Source: Saccharolobus solfataricus
GTDB lineage: Archaea; Thermoproteota; Thermoprotei_A; Sulfolobales; Sulfolobaceae
DNA: 32,000 nt
Assembly (NCBI RefSeq): GCF_900079115.1
Contig: NZ_LT549890.1
Coordinates: 2,310,001-2,342,000, forward strand
Direction: 5' to 3'
The translations under genes and the position numbers were made by a program. Under the pieces are notes generated by a model that saw nothing but the letters and a program-made list of their open reading frames with translations, ran no database searches and was not told where the DNA came from. This document shows positions 23,483-32,000 of the stretch, piece after piece. Positions within the stretch are counted from its first letter, which is position 1; each line of letters starts with the position of its first letter.

Positions 23483-24738
23483 ATGCCCCTAGATCCTAGA
23501 ATTAAAAAGTTACTAGAATCAGCTCTTACTATACCAATTGGTAAAGCCCCAGTAGAAGAGGTAAGAAAGATATTTAGGCAATTAGCGTCGGCAGCTCCCA
23601 AAGTCGAAGTTGGAAAAGTAGAAGATATAAAAATACCAGGCAGTGAAACCGTTATAAACGCTAGAGTGTATTTTCCGAAGAGTAGCGGTCCTTATGGTGT
23701 TCTAGTGTATCTTCATGGAGGCGGTTTTGTAATAGGCGATGTGGAATCTTATGACCCATTATGTAGAGCAATTACAAATGCGTGCAATTGCGTTGTAGTA
23801 TCAGTGGACTATAGGTTAGCTCCAGAATACAAGTTTCCTTCTGCAGTTATCGATTCATTTGACGCTACTAATTGGGTTTATAACAATTTAGATAAATTTG
23901 ATGGAAAGATGGGAGTTGCTATTGCGGGAGATAGTGCTGGAGGAAATTTGGCAGCGGTTGTAGCTCTTCTTTCAAAGGGTAAAATTAATTTGAAGTATCA
24001 AATACTGGTTTACCCAGCGGTAAGTTTAGATAACGTTTCAAGATCCATGATAGAGTACTCTGATGGGTTCTTCCTTACCAGAGGGGAGTGTTCTCATGCA
24101 GTCATCTTATTCGATATCATATAGTAAAATTAAATTAGGTTAGAAATTTTCATAATTAGTCGTTTCGATCTAGATGTAGCTAAGGAATTAGAACGTGAAA
24201 AACAGCCTCTGAAAAGGGTTTATGTGGGAGGGTTATGAAATCTTTTTGTGGTAGTACTAGAATGAACCTCGTAAACTCTTGCACATAAGCTTTTCTAAAA
24301 TAATGTCTCTGTTCAAATTTCTATATCTTAAACGTTAAATGAGCGTTTTCCCATATTACTCCAATATTTTTACAAACATTTTTTGAATTTCATGACTGTT
24401 TGAGAACACTGCCTACCAGAGAGCATATAGAGTGGTTCGGTTCTCAATACTTACGAAGCCCTGCAGATTTGCTAGACTTTAGGTTCTCTCCAATTCTGGC
24501 GCAAGATTTCAACGGATTACCTCCAGCCTTGATAATAACAGCAGAATACGATCCACTAAGGGATCAAGGAGAAGCGTATGCAAATAAACTACTACAAGCT
24601 GGAGTCTCAGTTACTAGTGTGAGATTTAACAACGTTATACACGGATTCCTCTCATTCTTTCCGTTGATGGAGCAAGGAAGAGATGCTATAGGTCTGATAG
24701 GGTCTGTGTTAAGACGAGTATTTTATGATAAAATTTAA
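23483..24738 (+). pseudogene. Hormone-sensitive-lipase-family carboxylesterase interrupted by a 330-bp insertion
   Basis: The N-fragment (23483-24124 ORF) has HGGGF (oxyanion hole) and GDSAGG (nucleophile). The C-fragment (24400-24738 ORF) has DPLRD and HGF (Asp and His of the triad). Removing 24084-24421 joins FFLTR to EHIEWFG in frame, giving 918 nt, i.e. 305 codons plus stop. Confidence 0.9.
24084..24413. mobile_element. MITE-like non-autonomous element, 330 bp, with imperfect terminal inverted repeats and an 8-bp target-site duplication
   Basis: Left end GGGAGTGTTCTCATGCAGTCAT. Right end (reverse complement) GGCAGTGTTCTCAAACAGTCAT. Flanked by direct TACCAGAG at 24076-24083 and 24414-24421. 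AT-rich interior with no long ORF. Confidence 0.85.
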
Positions 24739-24828: not shown

Positions 24829-25839
24829 ATGAAAGCCGTTGTTCTCCCAGCTCATAACCAAGGTTATAGAATAGAAGAGATAGCAGATCCTAAACCTTAT
24901 AAGGGAGAAGTCGTAATCAAGGTTAATAAAGCAGCCTTATGTTATAGGGACTTATTACAGATAAAAGGGTTCTATCCCAGATCTAAATACCCGCTAATTT
25001 TAGGTCATGAGGTAGTGGGAACAGTTGAGGAAGTTGGAGAAAACGTTAATGATTATAGGGAAGGAGATCGGGTAACCTCAATGCTTTTTGTGCCCGATTG
25101 GTCGTGTGAATATTGTAAGAGCGGAGAAGAAGTTTACTGTAAGAATAGGGTTCTATATGCTCAAGAACTAGATGGGTTTTTCGCAGAAAAGGCTAGGGTT
25201 AAGGCAAGCAGTTTAGTCAAAATACCTGAAAACGTTTCTGATGAAGGGGCTGTTATAGTTCCATGTGTTGCAGCAATGGTTTATAGGGGTTTGAAAAAGG
25301 CTGGAATAAAAGAAGGGGAAAATGTATTAGTTACTGGAGCGAGTGGTGGTGTAGGTATTCACGCAATTCAAGTAGCTAAGGCTCTAGGGGCTAAGGTGAT
25401 AGGCGTTACTAGTAGTGAGAGTAAGGCAAGGATTGTTTCCAAATTCGCTGACTACGTAATTGTAGGTGATAAGTTCTCAGAAGAGGCTAAAAAGATAGGC
25501 GATATTTCCATCGTTATTGAAAATGTTGGTCCCTACACTTTAGAGGAAAGTATGAGGAGTCTGAGGAGTGGTGGCAAGATTATTCAGATCGGGAATCTAG
25601 ATCCTTCTATAACATTTAATCTAAGGCTAGGCTATGTGATTCTTAAAGACCTAAGTTTAATTGGACATATAGGTGCGAATAAGAAAGACATAGTAGAAAC
25701 TTTAAACCTAGTTAAGGAAGGTAAAATAAAGCCTGTTATTGGGAGTGAGTTTAGGTTAGAGGATTTTGGAAAAGCTCTTGATTTACTTAAGGAAAATAAA
25801 AATAGGTATGGAAAAATATTGATTTCAAACTCTTTCTAG
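24829..25839 (+). CDS. Zinc-type medium-chain dehydrogenase/reductase (possibly enoyl/acryloyl-CoA-reductase-like)
   Basis: GHEVVG, structural-zinc motif CEYCKSGEEVYC, and Rossmann motif VTGASGGVG. 336 aa. The substrate assignment rests only on remembered similarity to crenarchaeal acryloyl-CoA reductases. Confidence 0.7.
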   Translation: MKAVVLPAHNQGYRIEEIADPKPYKGEVVIKVNKAALCYRDLLQIKGFYPRSKYPLILGHEVVGTVEEVGENVNDYREGDRVTSMLFVPDWSCEYCKSGEEVYCKNRVLYAQELDGFFAEKARVKASSLVKIPENVSDEGAVIVPCVAAMVYRGLKKAGIKEGENVLVTGASGGVGIHAIQVAKALGAKVIGVTSSESKARIVSKFADYVIVGDKFSEEAKKIGDISIVIENVGPYTLEESMRSLRSGGKIIQIGNLDPSITFNLRLGYVILKDLSLIGHIGANKKDIVETLNLVKEGKIKPVIGSEFRLEDFGKALDLLKENKNRYGKILISNSF

Positions 25840-27012
25840 AACTATTGCCCCACCTTGTCCTCCGCCTACACACAGTGTTGCAACACCATAATCTTTTCCT
25901 TCCATTATTAATTGTCTAGCCAATGTACCTACTAATCTAGCTCCAGTAGCTCCTAGGGGATGCCCTATGGCAATAGCACCTCCCTTCTTGTTTACTGTGT
26001 TCTCATCCAATTCCAATTGTTTTATAGCATATAATACTACAACAGCAAATGCCTCATTTATTTCCCATAAGTCTATTCTTCTAGTACTTAAATTAGCCTT
26101 TTCTAAGGCTTTCTTGGAAGCGGGTACCGGTCCCTTTCCCATCACCGCCGGAGGTACCCCTGCAAATCCAAAACTCTTTATCTTTGCCATTGGAGTTAAG
26201 CCGTACTTCTTCAACGCATTTTTTGACATTAAGAGTACATAAGAAGCTCCAGAATTCAAGGGTGCGGAATTTCCAGCAGTTATTGTACCATTGGGTTTAA
26301 AGGCTGGAGGTAATTGAGCTAATTTTTCCATACTGGTGTCTGGTCTAACTGATTGATCTAAGTTAACTACAGTTTTCTTCCCTTCGACTTCTACCTCAAT
26401 GGGTAAGATCTCGTCTTTAAAATACCCCTCCTGTATAGCTTTCCATGCTAATTGATGGCTCCTCAAAGACCACCTATCCATTTCTTCTCTTGTTATTTTA
26501 GCTTCTTCAGCTAATTTCTCAGCAGTTAATCCCATAACATATCCTGTAGTTAAATCGTATTCGATATATTTGCTATCGGTTAGAAACTTAGTGTTAATTT
26601 CAATGTGAGGATTATCAAACATTGGTGTTCTGGACAGCTTTTCAACCCCACCTGCTAGTACTATATCAGCCATGCCGGTTGATATTTCCATGGCTCCTAT
26701 GGAAACTGTAGTTAGTGATGAAGCGCATTGTCTATCAACAGCCATAGTTGGTATATTATAAGGCAATCTAGCAGCGAAAACTTCATGCCTACCTCCAAAA
26801 GCCCATTGTTCGCCTACTTGAAGTGCACATCCAGTGATTATTTCATCTATTTCTTCTGCCTTAATCCCATTTTTCTCTATTAATCTATTTATTACCATTC
26901 CAGCTAATTCCTCTGGTCTTATATTGTAAAACGGATCTTTTTGATAGTCCTTGCGTGAAAATCTCGTAAAAGCCGTCCTTACGTAATCGACTAGATATAC
27001 ATCCTCTAGCAT
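25825..27012 (-). CDS. Acetyl-CoA C-acyltransferase (thiolase)
   Basis: Active-site Cys region DRQCASS, NEAFA, GHPLGATG, and C-terminal CVGGGQG. 395 aa. Confidence 0.85.
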   Translation of the reverse strand: MLEDVYLVDYVRTAFTRFSRKDYQKDPFYNIRPEELAGMVINRLIEKNGIKAEEIDEIITGCALQVGEQWAFGGRHEVFAARLPYNIPTMAVDRQCASSLTTVSIGAMEISTGMADIVLAGGVEKLSRTPMFDNPHIEINTKFLTDSKYIEYDLTTGYVMGLTAEKLAEEAKITREEMDRWSLRSHQLAWKAIQEGYFKDEILPIEVEVEGKKTVVNLDQSVRPDTSMEKLAQLPPAFKPNGTITAGNSAPLNSGASYVLLMSKNALKKYGLTPMAKIKSFGFAGVPPAVMGKGPVPASKKALEKANLSTRRIDLWEINEAFAVVVLYAIKQLELDENTVNKKGGAIAIGHPLGATGARLVGTLARQLIMEGKDYGVATLCVGGGQGGAIVLERV

Positions 27013-27049
27013 CTTATCATCTACCCATTATATTATTTAACTTGATAGC

Positions 27050-27949
27050 TTATATAGGTTGTAGGAACTCGGAGATGTTAACTTTACTATTGTATAACTT
27101 ACTTAATGTGAGCGCTCTCCTTAAGTGAAGGTGAATATCGAGATCATCGGTAAATCCTATTCCTCCATGAACTTGTATACCACTTAATATAACCTTAGGT
27201 ATCTTTTTGTTTACTAAATCCTTAGCTACCCATGCGTACTTTATGTTTTCAGCAGCTTCCAGTACTAAAGATCTAGCTAATTCTACATCAATTGCGTCAT
27301 TAACTACCCTATGCTTTATTGCTTGATACGAACCTATAGGTTTTCCGAAAGCAACTCTCTCTTTACTATATTTAATCGACATACTAACTACTTCTTCACC
27401 ACTTCCGACCATCTGAGAGGCTAATGAAAGTGCAATTTCAGCGTTGTTAACTTCTATGTCTTCATGATTTCCAACGTGTTTGACTTTACTGATTTTCATG
27501 GAATTATCAAGAGAATTGAAAGTGTGAATTGTGCAATTGTCTCTCTTAATCAACTTGTTTCCTATTACTATATAATCAGCATCATCAGCTGAAGGCACAA
27601 AATTTGAATCAGACATAGCTATTTTTATTTCTCCAGAATACAGTCTATTTAAAACGTCTTTAGTCTTAATACCCCTAGATGCGACTACGCTACTTATTAC
27701 AATTCCCGGCAGTAATTTTCTACCAATAACCTCATTTATTATCACGTTATCTCTTAATGATAGTGTGGAAAGATAAGGCAAGATGTCAAGCTTAATTATT
27801 TCCCTCCATAGTTCCTCGGTATATTCCTTATTTCCCTCCATAATTGACCTTAACTTCTTCGTAGACCACCTTGAGTCCAGTAATTCATTTAAACTGTTTA
27901 GAATCAGTTTAAGATCCTCACTAATTTCGAAGTTTAAATCTAGGATCAT
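27050..27949 (-). CDS. Short acyl-CoA dehydrogenase-like protein, probably non-catalytic
   Basis: The C-terminal ACAD domain is recognisable (ERVAFGKPIGSYQAIKHRVVNDA, VHGGIGFTDD). The protein is only 299 aa, and the MCAD-type YEG catalytic-base motif reads YNS. Confidence 0.6.
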   Translation of the reverse strand: MILDLNFEISEDLKLILNSLNELLDSRWSTKKLRSIMEGNKEYTEELWREIIKLDILPYLSTLSLRDNVIINEVIGRKLLPGIVISSVVASRGIKTKDVLNRLYSGEIKIAMSDSNFVPSADDADYIVIGNKLIKRDNCTIHTFNSLDNSMKISKVKHVGNHEDIEVNNAEIALSLASQMVGSGEEVVSMSIKYSKERVAFGKPIGSYQAIKHRVVNDAIDVELARSLVLEAAENIKYAWVAKDLVNKKIPKVILSGIQVHGGIGFTDDLDIHLHLRRALTLSKLYNSKVNISEFLQPI

Positions 27950-27954
27950 TTAAA

Positions 27955-28881
27955 TCACCACGATTCGATCACATCTAAATCCCTTGGTAATAGTACATCT
28001 AATCTCATCTGCCTAGCTCTATTTATTGCGTCAATCCTAGTATTCAAAAGCTTTTTAGCGTAGTCTACCAGCTCCATATTGGTCAGATCAAAGGGTAGAT
28101 TTGTAACTTGGGGCATCGTAGGTTCAGAGAATATTCCTATAGCATAGGGTGCAAGATAATTAATGTGATCCATAGCAACCTTATATATTCCCTCTCCATG
28201 TTCCTTCACTAGTCTCGCGATTAAGTATACTCCAAACGCTATATGTCTAGACTCATCAGTGGCTATGAGGTTTATCATCTTGGCTAAACCAGGTAAGATC
28301 TTTCTCGTATTTGTTATCCGCCTAAAAATGTTATATCCTCCTTCAGCTGCAATACCTTCAACTACTAGATTGTAAGTTACCACGGCTTTAACTTGATTTT
28401 CCGGTGAAGGATCTTTAGATAAATTCCACATAGCTTTTGGTAATTCTTCATAGAATATCTTCCTATAATTAGGGGAGAGGTCTTTAGTGTATGCGCTCAG
28501 ATCTTCTATAACATTAACAGCGTCAAAAAACCTCCTAAAGGCTTCTACGTGCTTGGATTCCTCATAGACGAATTGCTCTAAATACATCACCTCTTCCACC
28601 TTTCCCTCCTTAACTAATGTAACGATTAGCGGGTGAAGATCCAATGCTACAGCTTCCTCTCCAGCGGCGAACTTTGAACCAACGTTTATTATAAACATTT
28701 TCTCTAAATCATTTAGCTTCTTCCAGTCTTCCGCATCTTTACTTAGATCTATATTAGCTGGATCCCAGAAAAGTCTTTTTCCAAGTTGATATAATTTCAT
28801 TGGGAAAAGTGACCAATTTAAACCTCCATGTCTTATCGACTTAAAATACTCATGTTTATATTCTTCAAAACTCATACCCAT
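27955..28881 (-). CDS. R2-like ligand-binding oxidase (ferritin-like di-metal carboxylate protein, RNR-R2 superfamily)
   Basis: Ligand pattern GEEAV ... EESKH ... YNLVVEG ... DESRH. Phe occupies the position of the RNR radical Tyr (His+4). Val lies at first-ligand-Glu+3 and Tyr at third-ligand-Glu-5, as in R2lox proteins. Confidence 0.7.
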   Translation of the reverse strand: MGMSFEEYKHEYFKSIRHGGLNWSLFPMKLYQLGKRLFWDPANIDLSKDAEDWKKLNDLEKMFIINVGSKFAAGEEAVALDLHPLIVTLVKEGKVEEVMYLEQFVYEESKHVEAFRRFFDAVNVIEDLSAYTKDLSPNYRKIFYEELPKAMWNLSKDPSPENQVKAVVTYNLVVEGIAAEGGYNIFRRITNTRKILPGLAKMINLIATDESRHIAFGVYLIARLVKEHGEGIYKVAMDHINYLAPYAIGIFSEPTMPQVTNLPFDLTNMELVDYAKKLLNTRIDAINRARQMRLDVLLPRDLDVIESW

Positions 28882-28973
28882 AATTAACTATAGATGATTC
28901 GTTTATATTTAAATTTTGCCTTAGATACGATAAAATAAAGTTTTAAGCTAAACTTTCAAACAAAAAGGTTATC

Positions 28974-29777
28974 CTATTTTATTCCACCTTTTATACTCTC
29001 TCCAGAATCTAACACAAACACTTGCCCAGTTAGAGACTCTATTTTAAGAATTGCAGCAGTGAACTCTGCTACCTCCTCTGGATCAAGAATTCTACCCATT
29101 AACGTGAATTTTTCACTAAACTCCTTTTCACTCATTCCTAATACCTGGAACATACTTTCACCTAGCTTAGTCTTCACAAATCCTGGGGCTATTGCATTAA
29201 CCCTTATTTTAGGAGCTAGTTCTAAAGCTAAGTATTTAGTTAATGCAATTACAGCAGCCTTCATTGCACCGTATATTGATAAGCCATAGGCTGGCGATAC
29301 TCCAGCAACTGATGCAACATTAACAATGGCTCCTCCATCTCTCATTTCTTTTGCGAAGATTTGAGAACAATAAACTACAGATTTAAAGTCAGTCGAGATA
29401 TGCTTGTCTAAAAGTTTATCATCTACGTTCAAAAAGGGAGAGAATAATCCTAAACCAGCATTATTTATCAATATATCAACTACTCTGTACCTATCTAGGG
29501 TTTCTTTAGCTAAAGTTTCGCATCCCTCCCTTGTTGAGACATCAGCTAAAACTCCACTAGCTTCTCCTCCATTCTCTTTTATAATCTTTATTGTTTCGTT
29601 CATCTCCTCAGCTCTCTTTTTCGCATTTACTACAACTAAACTACCTTCTTTAGCTAATCTCACAGCTATGGCTCTACCAATACCCCTACCAGAACCCGTT
29701 ACTACAACAACCTTATCCTTTAGAGAGTACATGAATAATGTTAATTTTTTATCAATAAAAAACTTTTCTAATTCCAC
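28974..29777 (-). CDS. Short-chain dehydrogenase/reductase (FabG-like 3-oxoacyl reductase type)
   Basis: TGSGRGIG cofactor motif, NNAG, and catalytic Y-x-x-x-K (YGAMK). The longest ORF starts at a GTG overlapping the upstream ADH stop. The ATG at 29732 (MYSLKDKVVVVTG) is the more typical SDR N-terminus. Confidence 0.8.
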   Translation of the reverse strand: MELEKFFIDKKLTLFMYSLKDKVVVVTGSGRGIGRAIAVRLAKEGSLVVVNAKKRAEEMNETIKIIKENGGEASGVLADVSTREGCETLAKETLDRYRVVDILINNAGLGLFSPFLNVDDKLLDKHISTDFKSVVYCSQIFAKEMRDGGAIVNVASVAGVSPAYGLSIYGAMKAAVIALTKYLALELAPKIRVNAIAPGFVKTKLGESMFQVLGMSEKEFSEKFTLMGRILDPEEVAEFTAAILKIESLTGQVFVLDSGESIKGGIK

Positions 29778-30814
29778 CTAATTATTGCTCTTATATGTAA
29801 TCCTTTCTTCAAATTCTCGTAAGCATCATTTATCTTGTCTGGAGTATAAATATGTGAAACTAACTTCTTAATATCTATCTTACCAGAAGATGCTAGACTA
29901 ACTAGCTCAGGTAGATCAATTCTAGGTCTATAACCTAAACTTCCTATTAAAGTTATACCTCTAGAGACAAATAGTGTTACGGGAATCTGTGCTAATGTAG
30001 AGAATCCCCCCAGTCCAGTAACAACTATAGTCCCTCCACTTTTGACAATTTCTAAAGGCAGTTTGAGATCTGGGTATGGTTTTGTCTCATATACTATATC
30101 AGCTCCATCTTCCAAAACTTCTAGAACTTTAGACCTAGCATCGTTTTCAGTAGCGTTAATAGTGTAAGTTGCACCTAATTCCTTGGCTTTCTTTAGTTTG
30201 TTCTCATCTATATCTACTGCAATAATTGGATTTAACCCCATGGCATTAGCCAACTGTATTGCAGCAGAACCTACACCACCGGAACCCACTATAACAACAC
30301 TCTTCCCAGAAGTAGTATTAGCACTTTTTAATGCGTTATAAGCAGTACCGTATGCACACGCAATCGGTGAAGAGTAGTACGGATCGAGGTTTTTGGCCAA
30401 GGGAATTACTGCTATCTCTGGGACAATTATATATTCAGCGTGGCCTCCATTAATCCCAATTAGACCTACTAATCTTTTCGCATTCTCTTTACAATAATTC
30501 TCTTTACCACTTGCACAATAACTACATATACCACATGGCACAATCCAAGATACTAGAACCGGATCTCCCTCCTTTAATCCATATGGATTCCTAACATTCT
30601 TACCTATCTTCTCGACCCATCCAGCAATCTCATGGCCAATTATAAATCCGTTAGGAAGTGGCCCAACTAATTCACCACTTAACAGATGTAGATCACTATG
30701 ACATATTCCGGTTGAAGCTACTTTCACTAAGATTTCCCCTTCTTTTGGAGTAGGATTAGGAACTTCTTCTATTTCTAATTGCAATCCATGTCCCTTATAT
30801 ATGGCTGCCTTCAT
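29768..30814 (-). CDS. Zinc-dependent alcohol dehydrogenase (MDR family)
   Basis: GICHSD, GHEIAG, structural-zinc motif CGICSYCASGKENYC, and GSGGVG Rossmann motif. 348 aa. Confidence 0.8.
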   Translation of the reverse strand: MKAAIYKGHGLQLEIEEVPNPTPKEGEILVKVASTGICHSDLHLLSGELVGPLPNGFIIGHEIAGWVEKIGKNVRNPYGLKEGDPVLVSWIVPCGICSYCASGKENYCKENAKRLVGLIGINGGHAEYIIVPEIAVIPLAKNLDPYYSSPIACAYGTAYNALKSANTTSGKSVVIVGSGGVGSAAIQLANAMGLNPIIAVDIDENKLKKAKELGATYTINATENDARSKVLEVLEDGADIVYETKPYPDLKLPLEIVKSGGTIVVTGLGGFSTLAQIPVTLFVSRGITLIGSLGYRPRIDLPELVSLASSGKIDIKKLVSHIYTPDKINDAYENLKKGLHIRAIIRWN

Positions 30815-31189: not shown

Positions 31190-32000
31190 AGAGGAAAGTA
31201 GGTGGAAGGACGAGATGAACAAGAAAAGGTTAAAGCGAGGGACTCCATAACTCCGTTATGCAAACCATGATATTACCCAAAACGGAGCTGAAGTCCCTCG
31301 CTATAACTTTAGCAACAAACAATATTAACGTTATCTCTCAAGATCTAGACCCGGAAATAGTGAAAGCAGCACCATCCTTGCTAACCGGAAACAGAGGAAA
31401 ATACTACTTGAAGGTAGTAAGACGAGGCGAGAAAGTAATTAGTAAAGGTCAGAGAACCTTCAAGTTCTACCCAATCTACAGAGAAGTAAAGGGAGAGATC
31501 AACGTAGTCGCTGTAGATGAGACCGGATTAACCGTGGGAGAAAAGGAACAAGAAAAAGCAGAGGGCTTTCTACTCTACAACTGGAAGAGAAAAGGAGTAA
31601 AGATGAGATCCTTGGACCTCGTATATCCCTTAAGGTTACCCCTCCTAGTGGAGGTAGCAGATTTGAGAAGCGACAGTCCATCACAGTTCCTACTCAGGAG
31701 CGTGAGGGAAGTAAGCCAATACATGGAAATAGATTACGTTGTAGCTGACGCCGGATTCTTGAACCTAGGGGTCATCAAGGAAATGCCCGTGAAGACCATT
31801 GTGAGAGGAAAGTCGAACTTGAAGGGATTCAAGGAACTATCTAACGTTCCATTAGTTGAGAAGAGATATGAGGTTAAGGACAAGGTTTACGTTGCGTATA
31901 GGGTCTTGGAATTTGAAGGGCTTTATTATTACGATGTGGTTTACGTTAAGGGGAAGCCGAGGCACTTCATGTTCGTAACGAACTTCGAGGGAGATCCCTA
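31190..32000 (+). mobile_element. Insertion sequence, left part (continues past the window end); left boundary approximate
   Basis: Abrupt rise in G+C around 31190-31200, followed by a DDE transposase ORF. I could not define the terminal inverted repeat because the other end lies outside the window. Confidence 0.6.
31258..32000 (+). CDS. DDE-type transposase (IS4/IS5/ISH3-like, Sulfolobus ISC-type), N-terminal about 247 codons
   Basis: Frame is open from the ATG at 31258 (MQTMILPKTELKSL...) to the window edge. Contains VVAVDETG (first Asp) and VVADAGF (second Asp) about 75 residues apart. Absent from the ORF track because it is truncated by the window. Confidence 0.7.
   Translation, partial: MQTMILPKTELKSLAITLATNNINVISQDLDPEIVKAAPSLLTGNRGKYYLKVVRRGEKVISKGQRTFKFYPIYREVKGEINVVAVDETGLTVGEKEQEKAEGFLLYNWKRKGVKMRSLDLVYPLRLPLLVEVADLRSDSPSQFLLRSVREVSQYMEIDYVVADAGFLNLGVIKEMPVKTIVRGKSNLKGFKELSNVPLVEKRYEVKDKVYVAYRVLEFEGLYYYDVVYVKGKPRHFMFVTNFEGDP

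What the first reader, a model, noticed from the sequence alone, without database searches (positions are those of the whole stretch)
25825..30814. R2-like ligand-binding oxidase embedded in a beta-oxidation-like gene cluster
Five co-directional minus-strand genes encode Zn-ADH, SDR, an R2lox-type di-metal protein, a short ACAD-like protein and a thiolase. The R2-like protein keeps both E-x-x-H pairs. It has Phe instead of the RNR radical Tyr. It conserves Val at ligand-Glu+3 and Tyr at ligand-Glu-5, the positions that form the Val-Tyr ether cross-link in characterised R2lox proteins. Those proteins co-purify with a long-chain fatty acid, and their physiological reaction is unknown. Here the ACAD-like gene starts 5 nt after the R2lox TGA, with a GGTGA overlapping that stop, which implies translational coupling and perhaps a complex. 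As I recall, the mycobacterial R2lox (Rv0233) also sits beside an acyl-CoA dehydrogenase gene (fadE4). If so, this is a cross-domain conserved association pointing to an acyl-CoA or fatty-acyl substrate, for example oxidative modification of a lipid-derived acyl chain.
Basis: partly seen in the sequence, partly recalled or inferred. Interest (0 to 1): 0.7.

Follow-up and report, generated by a model that had tools for sequence, protein, structure and literature searches.

The report
R2lox oxidase in archaeal fatty-acid cluster
A manganese/iron oxidase of unknown function (R2lox) sits in the known fatty-acid gene cluster of the archaeon Saccharolobus solfataricus, and the "short acyl-CoA dehydrogenase" coupled to it looks like the non-catalytic half of a two-subunit dehydrogenase rather than a dedicated R2lox partner.

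Summary
Window 25825-30814 (minus strand) encodes Zn-ADH, SDR, R2lox, a 299-aa ACAD-like protein and a thiolase.

The window is Saccharolobus solfataricus. The locus is the orthologue of the FadR-regulated fatty-acid cluster saci_1103-1126 of S. acidocaldarius. The R2lox is 73% identical to Saci_1112, which is the crystallised SaR2loxII (7QBK). In published RNA-seq, Saci_1112 and Saci_1113 have near-equal abundance and are derepressed together in a fadR deletion.

- R2lox is adjacent to the short ACAD in several Sulfolobaceae lineages, in both gene orders.
- None of 80 bacterial R2lox loci has an ACAD within about 8 kb. SCP2 is the commonest lipid-related neighbour there.
- The short ACAD lacks the catalytic Glu and the flavin-ring site. 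It keeps the motifs that contact the ADP part of FAD.
- Full-length ACADs with the complementary pattern lie in the same clusters. This is the beta/alpha pattern of heteromeric ACADs.

The result is a useful, testable lead on R2lox function but not a new kind of system.

The parts
29768..30814 (-). Zn-dependent MDR alcohol dehydrogenase (adh-9 type)
   Evidence: ADH_N and ADH_zinc_N domains. The four-Cys structural-Zn motif CGICSYCASGKENYC is visible in the translation. The exact sequence is named alcohol dehydrogenase in S. solfataricus, and the P2 homologue is Adh-9, AAK42635. It is 78% identical to the gene at the same position in S. caldissimus, and 66% identical to the Zn-ADH next to a distant R2lox in L171.
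28974..29777 (-). FabG-like SDR, a probable ketoacyl-CoA reductase. The likely true start is Met16 at 29732.
   Evidence: adh_short domain; NF004746 scores 470 bits against a cutoff of 320 and aligns residues 16-267 to the whole model. It is 88% identical to the SDR upstream of R2lox in S. caldissimus. Orthology to Saci_1104 is inferred from the shared annotation and was not aligned here.
28903..28916 (-). TATA-like box (AAATTTAAATATAA) about 28 nt upstream of the R2lox ATG; a candidate archaeal promoter for a leaderless R2lox transcript
   Evidence: Read directly from the sequence. The same GCAAAATTTAAATATAAAG box is found in L087, L091 and L092. AT-rich TATA-like boxes also precede R2lox in L001, L089 and L170. 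Promoter function is inferred, not shown.
27955..28881 (-). R2-like ligand-binding oxidase, orthologue of SaR2loxII (Saci_1112)
   Evidence: NF006198 scores 641 bits against a cutoff of 274. The best PDB hit is 7QBK, E 5.8e-154. It is 73% identical to Saci_1112. Ligand and cross-link residues are conserved. NCBI names the exact sequence R2-like ligand-binding oxidase.
27955..27959 (-). GGTGA Shine-Dalgarno-like motif overlapping the R2lox stop codon, 5 nt before the ACAD-like ATG
   Evidence: A GGTGA or AGTGA motif lies 4-7 nt (gap to the ATG) upstream of the short-ACAD ATG in L001, L087, L090, L091 and L092. Stop-to-start spacing ranges from a 4-nt overlap to 11 nt.
27050..27949 (-). Short (299 aa) ACAD-fold protein, beta-subunit-like and predicted non-catalytic; orthologue of Saci_1113
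   Evidence: Only the Acyl-CoA_dh_1 domain is detected. The best full-length family match is IpdE2, E 4e-31, below its cutoff. Asn287 occupies the catalytic Glu position. The middle domain is truncated, while R198..FGKPIG and IQVHGGIGF are invariant. The AF2 model has pLDDT 86.6 and an ACAD fold; the top Foldseek hit is the Tcur3481-3483 steroid ACAD.
25825..27012 (-). Beta-ketothiolase, orthologue of Saci_1114
   Evidence: Thiolase_N and Thiolase_C domains; NF005033 scores 764 bits. It is 84% identical to Saci_1114, which has been characterised as the beta-oxidation ketothiolase.
24829..25839 (+). MDR enoyl-CoA/acryloyl-CoA reductase, orthologue of Saci_1115; convergent with the thiolase and overlapping its 3' end by 15 nt
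   Evidence: ADH_N and ADH_zinc_N domains. It is 69% identical to Saci_1115, a characterised NADPH enoyl-CoA reductase. The same position and orientation are seen in L001, L087 and L090-L092.
23483..24738 (+). HSL-type esterase (Saci_1116 orthologue) disrupted by a 330-bp MITE-like insert at 24084-24413
   Evidence: The N-terminal part matches Abhydrolase_3 profile positions 1-132 and the C-terminal part matches 132-209. The insert has inverted terminal repeats and an 8-bp target duplication TACCAGAG.

Best explanation
The locus is the Saccharolobus solfataricus copy of the FadR-type, acyl-CoA-responsive fatty-acid/lipid metabolism cluster described in Sulfolobus acidocaldarius (saci_1103-1126).

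Operon structure. R2lox probably heads its own transcript from a TATA box about 28 nt upstream. The short ACAD gene follows with an internal GGTGA ribosome-binding site, so the two are made together. The thiolase follows and may also have a promoter of its own. Zn-ADH and SDR form a separate upstream unit.

Short ACAD-fold protein. It is most likely the non-catalytic beta-type subunit of a heteromeric ACAD. It has lost the catalytic Glu and the flavin-ring site but keeps the motifs that hold the ADP part of FAD. It pairs with an alpha-type full-length ACAD (Saci_1108 / S. solfataricus acd-4) encoded about ten genes away in the same cluster.

R2lox. It is inferred to be an O2-activating Mn/Fe enzyme that oxidises a long aliphatic chain, most plausibly by hydroxylating a hydrocarbon, fatty-acyl or lipid-derived chain. 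Its product would pass through the adjacent dehydrogenases and then into beta-oxidation.

Shown: gene identities, synteny, motif patterns, and co-regulation in the orthologue. Inferred: the promoter, translational coupling, alpha/beta pairing, and the R2lox reaction.
For: Identity of the cluster:
- The window proteins are 69-84% identical to Saci_1112 through Saci_1116 and lie in the same order.
- By GenBank accession order, the S. solfataricus FadR homologue (AAK42639) lies 4 genes beyond the Zn-ADH (AAK42635), and the alpha-type ACAD acd-4 (AAK42644) lies 9 genes beyond it.

Co-regulation:
- In the fadR deletion, Saci_1112, Saci_1113 and Saci_1114 change by log2FC 0.58, 0.62 and 0.62.
- Base means are 428 and 410 for R2lox and the short ACAD, against 1193 for the thiolase. 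Saci_1111 changes by only 0.33.

Operon signals:
- The TATA-like box before R2lox is conserved.
- The GGTGA motif and a spacing of -4 to +11 nt before the short ACAD are conserved.

Beta-subunit reading of the short ACAD:
- The catalytic Glu is replaced by Asn287.
- The middle domain is truncated and the C-terminal FAD motifs are invariant.
- The best whole-length family hit is IpdE2.
- In 48 of 73 loci, the closest bacterial full-length relatives sit beside a second, co-directional ACAD gene (abutting in about two-thirds, up to about 1.7 kb away in the rest). Most of the remaining contigs are too short to tell.
- Those partner genes have the complementary motif pattern.
- In 6 archaeal loci, all probably Sulfolobales, alpha-like ACADs (flavin-ring motifs and helix-G Glu present, trans-FAD motifs absent) lie in the same cluster as the short ACAD.
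- This is the published division of labour in alpha2beta2 ACADs.

R2lox and lipid chains:
- Homologues bind C16/C18 hydroxy fatty acids.
- GkR2loxI lies in an alkane/beta-oxidation cluster and has a reported alkane-degrading activity.
- SCP2 is adjacent or fused in 13 of 80 bacterial loci.
- A divergent archaeal R2lox (36% identical) is followed by a Zn-ADH 66% identical to this window's, then an ACAD, an acyl-CoA synthetase and an esterase.
Against: - No biochemical activity is known for this R2lox subfamily. Recombinant SaR2loxII was largely metal-free and ligand-free and had no cross-link.
- The Geobacillus alkane activity rests on crude lysates and small differences.
- The alpha/beta pairing is inferred from motifs and co-location only. 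The alpha gene is not adjacent, and it lies outside this window.
- R2lox/short-ACAD adjacency in two different gene orders is more than a generic beta-oxidation neighbourhood predicts, and leaves room for a direct functional link.
- The cluster also holds fatty-acid synthesis enzymes, so a catabolic role is not certain.
Confidence: 0.6

Rival explanations
1. R2lox and the short ACAD-fold protein form a physical complex. The catalytically dead ACAD scaffold binds an acyl-CoA and presents its chain to the Mn/Fe site, much as acyl-ACP reductase feeds aldehyde-deformylating oxygenase.
For: - The genes are tightly coupled in all Saccharolobus and S. acidocaldarius loci examined.
- Adjacency is kept with the order reversed in L089 and L170.
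- Transcript abundance is near-equal, 428 against 410.
- SaR2loxII, the paralogue next to the short ACAD, purifies empty and immature when expressed alone. SaR2loxI, which has no such neighbour, purifies loaded.
- R2lox researchers propose an unidentified protein partner that docks on a charged surface patch.
Against: - Short-ACAD homologues at 36-51% identity and the 266-aa paralogues occur without R2lox. They lie next to alpha-type ACADs or other beta-oxidation genes, or stand alone.
- The conserved motifs of the short ACAD are those that bind another ACAD subunit's FAD.
- No bacterial R2lox locus sampled has any ACAD nearby.
- No interaction data exist, and complex prediction was not possible with these tools.
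Confidence: 0.2
2. R2lox works in fatty-acid synthesis or modification rather than degradation. It could desaturate or hydroxylate acyl chains made by the archaeal fatty-acid synthase enzymes encoded in the same cluster.
For: - R2lox is flanked by the FabG-like SDR and by the enoyl-CoA reductase orthologue.
- The S. acidocaldarius counterparts of both act in acyl-CoA-based fatty-acid synthesis.
- The ligands that co-purify with R2lox homologues are hydroxylated, and some are unsaturated.
- Ferritin-like di-metal enzymes include acyl desaturases (general knowledge).
Against: - The immediate operon partner is the thiolase assigned to beta-oxidation, not the synthesis thiolase/DUF35 pair.
- FadR derepression by acyl-CoA follows catabolic logic.
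- In S. acidocaldarius the SDR is not next to R2lox.
Confidence: 0.15
3. The protein is a canonical class I ribonucleotide reductase small subunit, as many genome annotations say.
For: The Pfam Ribonuc_red_sm domain matches at E 1.6e-23. Several sources name it an RNR beta chain.
Against: - Phe115 replaces the radical Tyr.
- RNR beta family models score at most 63 bits against cutoffs of 237 or more, while the R2lox model scores 641.
- The protein is 73% identical to the solved R2lox 7QBK.
- No large subunit is present in the window.
Confidence: 0.01

Closest known systems
SaR2loxII (Saci_1112, PDB 7QBK) and the R2lox family (MtR2lox Rv0233, GkR2loxI, SaR2loxI, SeR2lox)
   Same: The window protein is 73% identical to SaR2loxII. 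It has the same six metal ligands, Phe at the radical-Tyr position and the Val/Tyr pair. Its genomic neighbours are the same as those of Saci_1112.
   Different: Nothing distinguishes it at the family level. Unlike MtR2lox, GkR2loxI, SaR2loxI and SeR2lox, this subfamily (as SaR2loxII) crystallised without ligand, with 0.35 metal occupancy and without the ether cross-link.
FadR-regulated fatty-acid/lipid cluster saci_1103-1126 of S. acidocaldarius (Wang et al. 2019; the archaeal fatty-acid synthase preprint)
   Same: The R2lox, short ACAD, thiolase, convergent enoyl-CoA reductase and esterase genes are in the same order. A FadR homologue and an alpha-type ACAD lie nearby by accession order.
   Different: - In Saccharolobus a Zn-ADH and the SDR sit directly upstream of R2lox. 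In S. acidocaldarius an acyl-CoA synthetase sits there.
- Here the esterase is broken by a MITE, and an IS element borders the Zn-ADH.
- The published main texts on the S. acidocaldarius cluster that were text-searched do not mention the gene. In the RNA-seq supplement it is listed as an RNR beta chain.
Alpha2beta2 heteromeric acyl-CoA dehydrogenases of steroid-degrading bacteria (ChsE4-ChsE5, ChsE1-ChsE2, IpdE1-IpdE2)
   Same: The motifs are split in the same way. One chain has the flavin-ring site and the catalytic Glu; the other has only the ADP-ribose contacts. IpdE2 is the best whole-length family match and is similarly short, with a 311-position model. The alpha and beta genes need not be adjacent.
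   Different: The IpdE2 score is far below the equivalog cutoff (108 against 450). The context is fatty-acid, not steroid, metabolism. The organism is an archaeon. No complex has been shown.
GkR2loxI (GK2771) alkane/beta-oxidation cluster of Geobacillus kaustophilus, and haloarchaeal R2lox clusters with ferredoxin and sterol-carrier proteins
   Same: R2lox is embedded among alcohol dehydrogenase, acyl-CoA synthetase, ACAD, reductase and thiolase genes. The lipid-carrier association matches the SCP2 adjacency or fusion seen here in bacteria.
   Different: The neighbours and their order differ. Those clusters have no short beta-type ACAD coupled to R2lox. This window has no SCP2 or ferredoxin gene.

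Membership tests
[quoted passage not shown] | Matches the curated R2lox family models above their cutoff | tested here: met
   NF006198 scores 641 bits (cutoff 274), NF006199 scores 293 (cutoff 286) and NF006200 scores 265 (cutoff 194).
[quoted passage not shown] | Six carboxylate/histidine metal ligands, with Glu as the first ligand | tested here: met
   E75, E108, H111, E175, E210 and H213 are invariant in 20 homologues and align with the 7QBK ligands.
[quoted passage not shown] | No radical-harbouring Tyr at the RNR R2 position | tested here: met
   Phe115 lies four residues after H111 and is nearly invariant.
[quoted passage not shown] | Val at ligand Glu +3 and Tyr at ligand Glu -5, forming the ether cross-link | tested here: inconclusive
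   V78 and Y170 are present and invariant. In the 73%-identical SaR2loxII crystal structure the cross-link is absent and Tyr170 points away.
[quoted passage not shown] | Heterodinuclear Mn/Fe cofactor and a bound long-chain ligand in a hydrophobic tunnel | not testable with these tools
   The orthologue showed 0.35 occupancy for both metals and no clear ligand density when made in E. coli.
Class I RNR small subunit (R2/NrdB/NrdF) | Radical Tyr, a score above the RNR beta family cutoffs, and a partner large subunit | tested here: not met
   Phe115 occupies the Tyr position. The best RNR beta model scores 63 bits against a cutoff of 237. No Ribonuc_red_lg-type ORF was found in the window.
Canonical homotetrameric acyl-CoA dehydrogenase | N, middle and C domains, with the flavin-ring motifs of the middle domain | tested here: not met
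   Only Acyl-CoA_dh_1 is detected. About 80 residues are missing, mainly from the middle domain. There is no S/T-E-P-x-x-G-S-D motif and no K-x-W-I-T/S-N motif.
Canonical homotetrameric acyl-CoA dehydrogenase | A catalytic Glu, either in the Y-E-G motif or at the helix-G position | tested here: not met
   Asn287 aligns with Glu367 of butyryl-CoA dehydrogenase. This position is variable across the family. There is no helix-G L-x-x-E-R motif.
Beta subunit of alpha2beta2 heteromeric ACADs | Lacks the catalytic base and the flavin-ring site but keeps the contacts to the ADP-ribose part of FAD | tested here: met
   R198, F201-G202, P204-I205, Q259 and G262-G263-x-G265-F266-T267 are invariant in 19 short ACADs. 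The defining division of labour is taken from the literature.
Beta subunit of alpha2beta2 heteromeric ACADs | A cognate alpha subunit with the complementary pattern in the same genome or cluster | tested here: met
   Alpha-like ACADs are present in L001, L002, L003, L004, L089 and L172. The S. solfataricus orthologue acd-4 clusters at 90% identity or more with a protein 82% identical to Saci_1108, and lies 9-11 accession numbers away. It is outside the window.
Beta subunit of alpha2beta2 heteromeric ACADs | Equivalog-level match to IpdE2; a physical alpha2beta2 complex with one FAD per alpha-beta pair | tested here: not met
   The IpdE2 model scores 108.7 bits against a cutoff of 450, so this is not an IpdE2 orthologue. 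Complex formation cannot be tested here.
FadR (TetR-type) acyl-CoA-responsive fatty-acid regulon of Sulfolobales | Orthologous gene content and order, a FadR gene in the cluster, and derepression in a fadR deletion | tested here: inconclusive
   Content and order are met. FadR proximity is inferred from accession numbers only. Derepression is shown only for the S. acidocaldarius orthologues.

The most novel reading that the evidence does not exclude
R2loxII works as a third component of the split alpha/beta ACAD, docking on the beta-type subunit. This would create a Mn/Fe-plus-flavin machine in which acyl-CoA bound by the ACAD scaffold is oxidised by O2 at the R2lox site, or in which electrons from acyl-CoA dehydrogenation reduce the Mn/Fe centre. 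That would give R2lox both its long-sought partner and its physiological substrate class, acyl-CoA thioesters.
Probability: 0.12. Interest if true: 0.8.

Novelty: new member of a known kind. Interest (0 to 1): 0.45.

Why it matters
R2lox enzymes have been studied structurally since 2009, but their physiological reaction and partner remain unknown. The authors of the SaR2loxII structure say that native-host expression and finding a partner are the way forward.

- Placing SaR2loxII and its S. solfataricus orthologue inside an acyl-CoA-responsive, FadR-repressed regulon narrows the substrate search to lipid-derived chains.
- It does so in a genetically tractable archaeon.
- The gene is made together with an ACAD-fold protein and a beta-oxidation thiolase, which names concrete candidates for interaction tests.
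- As a by-product, the analysis suggests that Sulfolobales use split alpha/beta ACADs with a miniaturised beta chain. I found no description of this arrangement for archaea in the searchable literature.

Tried and rejected
- **Canonical RNR small subunit:** rejected.
- **General, cross-domain R2lox-ACAD linkage:** rejected for the sample examined, which had 0 ACAD in 80 bacterial loci.
  - The sample is biased.
  - It returned no Actinomycetota such as Mycobacterium, no Geobacillus, no haloarchaea and no Sulfolobales.
- **Metagenome scan with the short-ACAD profile:** it gave only 7 Sulfolobales loci. The rest were bacterial full-length relatives. These were then used to show the tandem alpha/beta arrangement.
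- **Sigma-70 promoter and intrinsic-terminator scan:** uninformative for an archaeon, with 25 promoter-like sites against 19.6 expected. The archaeal TATA boxes were read by eye instead.
- **PDB sequence and profile searches for the short ACAD:** they matched only the C-terminal domain of many ACADs and did not separate alpha from beta chains. Foldseek put a heteromeric steroid ACAD first, but homotetrameric ACADs scored almost as well.
- **R2lox/short-ACAD complex prediction:** not possible. There is no multimer mode, and the two genes are in different reading frames.
- **The 266-aa short-ACAD paralogue as the partner of SaR2loxI:** rejected. It lies next to a MaoC gene and an alpha-type ACAD, and the SaR2loxI locus has no ACAD.

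Full report
**1. What is in the sequence**

The window has 31-40% G+C across 2-kb windows. Its proteins match Saccharolobus solfataricus exactly.

Five co-directional genes lie on the minus strand between 25825 and 30814. The family assignments are clear:
- a Zn-dependent MDR alcohol dehydrogenase
- a FabG-like SDR
- an R2-like ligand-binding oxidase (NF006198, 641 bits, cutoff 274)
- a 299-aa protein with only the C-terminal ACAD domain
- a thiolase (NF005033, 764 bits)

The residue-level claims about the R2lox hold in a 20-sequence alignment. E75, V78, E108, H111, Y170, E175, E210 and H213 are invariant. F115, at the RNR radical-Tyr position, is nearly invariant.

The junction reads TGG TGA TTTAA ATG, with GGTGA overlapping the stop. 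No RNR large subunit is found in the window.

Two corrections to the observation:
- The SDR probably starts at Met16.
- A TATA-like box about 28 nt upstream of the R2lox ATG is conserved in orthologous loci. This suggests that R2lox starts its own, probably leaderless, transcript.

**2. The locus is a known cluster**

The R2lox is 73% identical to Saci_1112 of S. acidocaldarius. Saci_1112 is the crystallised SaR2loxII, PDB 7QBK.

In S. acidocaldarius the same order is found: R2lox, short ACAD, thiolase, convergent MDR reductase, esterase. The gene numbering fits Saci_1112 to Saci_1116, because Saci_1109, 1114, 1115, 1120 and 1121 match their published functions. Identities to the window proteins are 84% (thiolase), 70% (short ACAD), 69% (MDR) and 73% (esterase N-terminal part).

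This is the 30-kb saci_1103-1126 cluster, which is repressed by the TetR-type, acyl-CoA-responsive FadR.

The RNA-seq supplement of that paper lists Saci_1112 as 'ribonucleotide-diphosphate reductase subunit beta':

| Gene | Product | Base mean | log2FC in fadR deletion |
|---|---|---|---|
| Saci_1111 | acyl-CoA ligase | not used | 0.33 |
| Saci_1112 | R2lox | 428 | 0.58 |
| Saci_1113 | short ACAD | 410 | 0.62 |
| Saci_1114 | thiolase | 1193 | 0.62 |

This fits a co-transcribed R2lox/short-ACAD pair, with extra transcription of the thiolase.

The main texts of the two cluster papers do not mention the R2lox. The R2lox structural paper does not discuss its gene context.

By GenBank accession order, the S. 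solfataricus P2 FadR homologue (AAK42639) and an alpha-type ACAD, acd-4 (AAK42644), lie 4 and 9 genes beyond the Zn-ADH, adh-9 (AAK42635). The cluster therefore continues past the IS element at the end of the window.

**3. How conserved is the R2lox-ACAD link?**

Within the Saccharolobus/S. acidocaldarius clade, R2lox sits directly upstream of the short ACAD in every locus examined: the window, L001, L087, L090, L091 and L092. Stop-to-start spacing ranges from a 4-nt overlap to 11 nt. A GGTGA or AGTGA motif lies 4-7 nt before the ATG.

In two more divergent loci (a Sulfolobaceae MAG and a related metagenome contig) (R2lox about 50% identical) the order is reversed. There the short ACAD comes first, and R2lox follows behind its own TATA-like box.

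Other short-ACAD homologues (36-51% identical) and the 266-273-aa paralogues have no R2lox nearby. They sit in beta-oxidation clusters or stand alone.

SaR2loxI has no fatty-acid genes beside it.

A distant archaeal R2lox (36% identical, L171) is followed by four genes: a Zn-ADH 66% identical to this window's, a canonical ACAD, an acyl-CoA synthetase and an esterase.

In 80 bacterial R2lox loci (1.04 Mb), tblastn with archaeal and bacterial ACAD seeds found the following:
- no ACAD
- one thiolase
- five acyl-CoA synthetases
- six loci with an MDR-ADH hit
- thirteen SCP2 genes, most directly upstream of or fused to R2lox

Pfam scans of the 140 immediate neighbours gave mainly methyltransferases (11, of which 7 also match the CMAS family), NUDIX proteins (10) and hydrolases.

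This sample is taxonomically biased. It lacks Mycobacterium and Geobacillus, where ACAD genes are nearby according to the literature.

The link to lipid metabolism is therefore recurrent. A specific, universal R2lox-ACAD pairing is not.

**4. What the short ACAD is**

The protein has the ACAD fold in reduced form. The AF2 model has pLDDT 86.6 and pTM 0.88. The best Foldseek hit is the heteromeric steroid ACAD Tcur3481-3483, although homotetrameric ACADs score nearly as well.

Sequence features:
- Asn287 occupies the catalytic Glu position, and that position varies across the family.
- The middle domain is cut down and lacks the flavin-ring motifs.
- The two C-terminal motifs R..FGKPIG..Q and IQVHGGIGFT are invariant.
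- The only whole-length family match is IpdE2, the short beta chain of a heteromeric ACAD (E 4e-31, below its cutoff).

Evidence from relatives:
- The closest full-length relatives are bacterial proteins, 25-29% identical.
- In 48 of 73 such loci they lie beside a second, co-directional ACAD gene (abutting in about two-thirds of these, up to about 1.7 kb away in the rest). Most of the remaining contigs are too short to tell.
- The partner genes show the reverse pattern. They have the flavin-ring motifs and a helix-G Glu but lack the C-terminal FAD motifs.
- Sulfolobales full-length ACADs of the Saci_1108 type have the same alpha-like pattern. They lie in the same clusters as short ACADs in six loci.
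- S. solfataricus has the orthologue acd-4.

This is the published division of labour in alpha2beta2 ACADs. Alpha binds the flavin ring, substrate and catalytic Glu; beta contacts the ADP-ribose.

I therefore read the short ACAD as a beta-type subunit. This is an inference from motifs and co-location, not a demonstrated complex.

**5. Most likely mechanism**

When acyl-CoA relieves FadR repression, R2lox and the beta-type ACAD chain are made together, along with the thiolase. The beta chain pairs with the alpha-type ACAD of the same cluster.

R2lox most plausibly oxidises a long aliphatic chain with O2, probably by hydroxylation. This would feed the neighbouring dehydrogenases and then beta-oxidation.

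Support for a lipid-chain substrate:
- Homologues co-purify with hydroxy fatty acids.
- SCP2 is often adjacent or fused.
- The Zn-ADH association recurs.
- Geobacillus GkR2loxI has a reported alkane activity, though the evidence is weak.

A direct R2lox/short-ACAD complex is not excluded. The points in its favour are adjacency in two gene orders, equal expression, and the immature state of SaR2loxII when made alone. I give it about 0.2.

**6. Verdict**

The R2lox and the cluster are already known, and the gene is now annotated as R2lox by NCBI.

Two points appear to be unreported, as far as the searchable literature shows:
- SaR2loxII-type R2lox belongs to the FadR fatty-acid regulon.
- It is coupled to a beta-type ACAD chain.

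This is a testable lead on an open question rather than a new kind of system. Interest is 0.45.

Noticed in passing
window 24076-24421: A 330-bp MITE-like element (24084-24413) splits the HSL-type esterase gene, the Saci_1116 orthologue. It has 20-nt inverted termini and an 8-bp target-site duplication, TACCAGAG. The two halves match Abhydrolase_3 profile positions 1-132 and 132-209, so the esterase is a pseudogene in this strain.
   Followed up: yes
window 31270-32000 (+): The 5' part of a DDE_Tnp_1 transposase gene runs off the end of the window, just beyond the Zn-ADH upstream region. An IS element therefore interrupts the fatty-acid cluster between adh-9 and the FadR/acd-4 side.
   Followed up: partly
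L001, L002, L003, L004, L089, L172 (archaeal loci, mostly Sulfolobales): Archaeal ACADs come in complementary pairs. Full-length 'alpha-like' chains lack the trans FAD-binding motifs. Short 'beta-like' chains of 266-300 aa carry only those motifs. I found no description of split ACADs in archaea.
   Followed up: partly
L007-L086 (bacterial R2lox loci); P0200, P0209, P0213, P0216, P0219, P0226: An SCP2 sterol-carrier domain is encoded directly upstream of R2lox, or fused to it, in 13 of 80 bacterial loci and in several proteins of about 440 aa. Methyltransferases (11, of which 7 also match the CMAS family) and NUDIX hydrolases (10) are the commonest immediate neighbours among 140.
   Followed up: partly
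L171:93-8098: A divergent archaeal R2lox (36% identical, 345 aa) has a divergently transcribed Nramp metal transporter upstream. Downstream lie a Zn-ADH 66% identical to this window's, a canonical ACAD, an acyl-CoA synthetase and an esterase.
   Followed up: partly
L088:11306-15578: The SaR2loxI locus has no fatty-acid genes next to it. Malate synthase and isocitrate lyase (the glyoxylate shunt) lie 2.4-5.3 kb downstream.
   Followed up: no
L004:10599-14943 and L172:3619-7948: These archaeal clusters combine an alpha-like ACAD, two SCPx-type thiolases, a DUF35/ChsH2-like protein and a MaoC hydratase. The gene set resembles bacterial steroid side-chain degradation operons.
   Followed up: no
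L045 and L066 (Ktedonobacteraceae); M. tuberculosis Rv0232-Rv0233: A TetR-family regulator gene lies directly upstream of R2lox in two Ktedonobacteraceae loci and in M. tuberculosis. This echoes the TetR-type FadR control seen in Sulfolobus.
   Followed up: no
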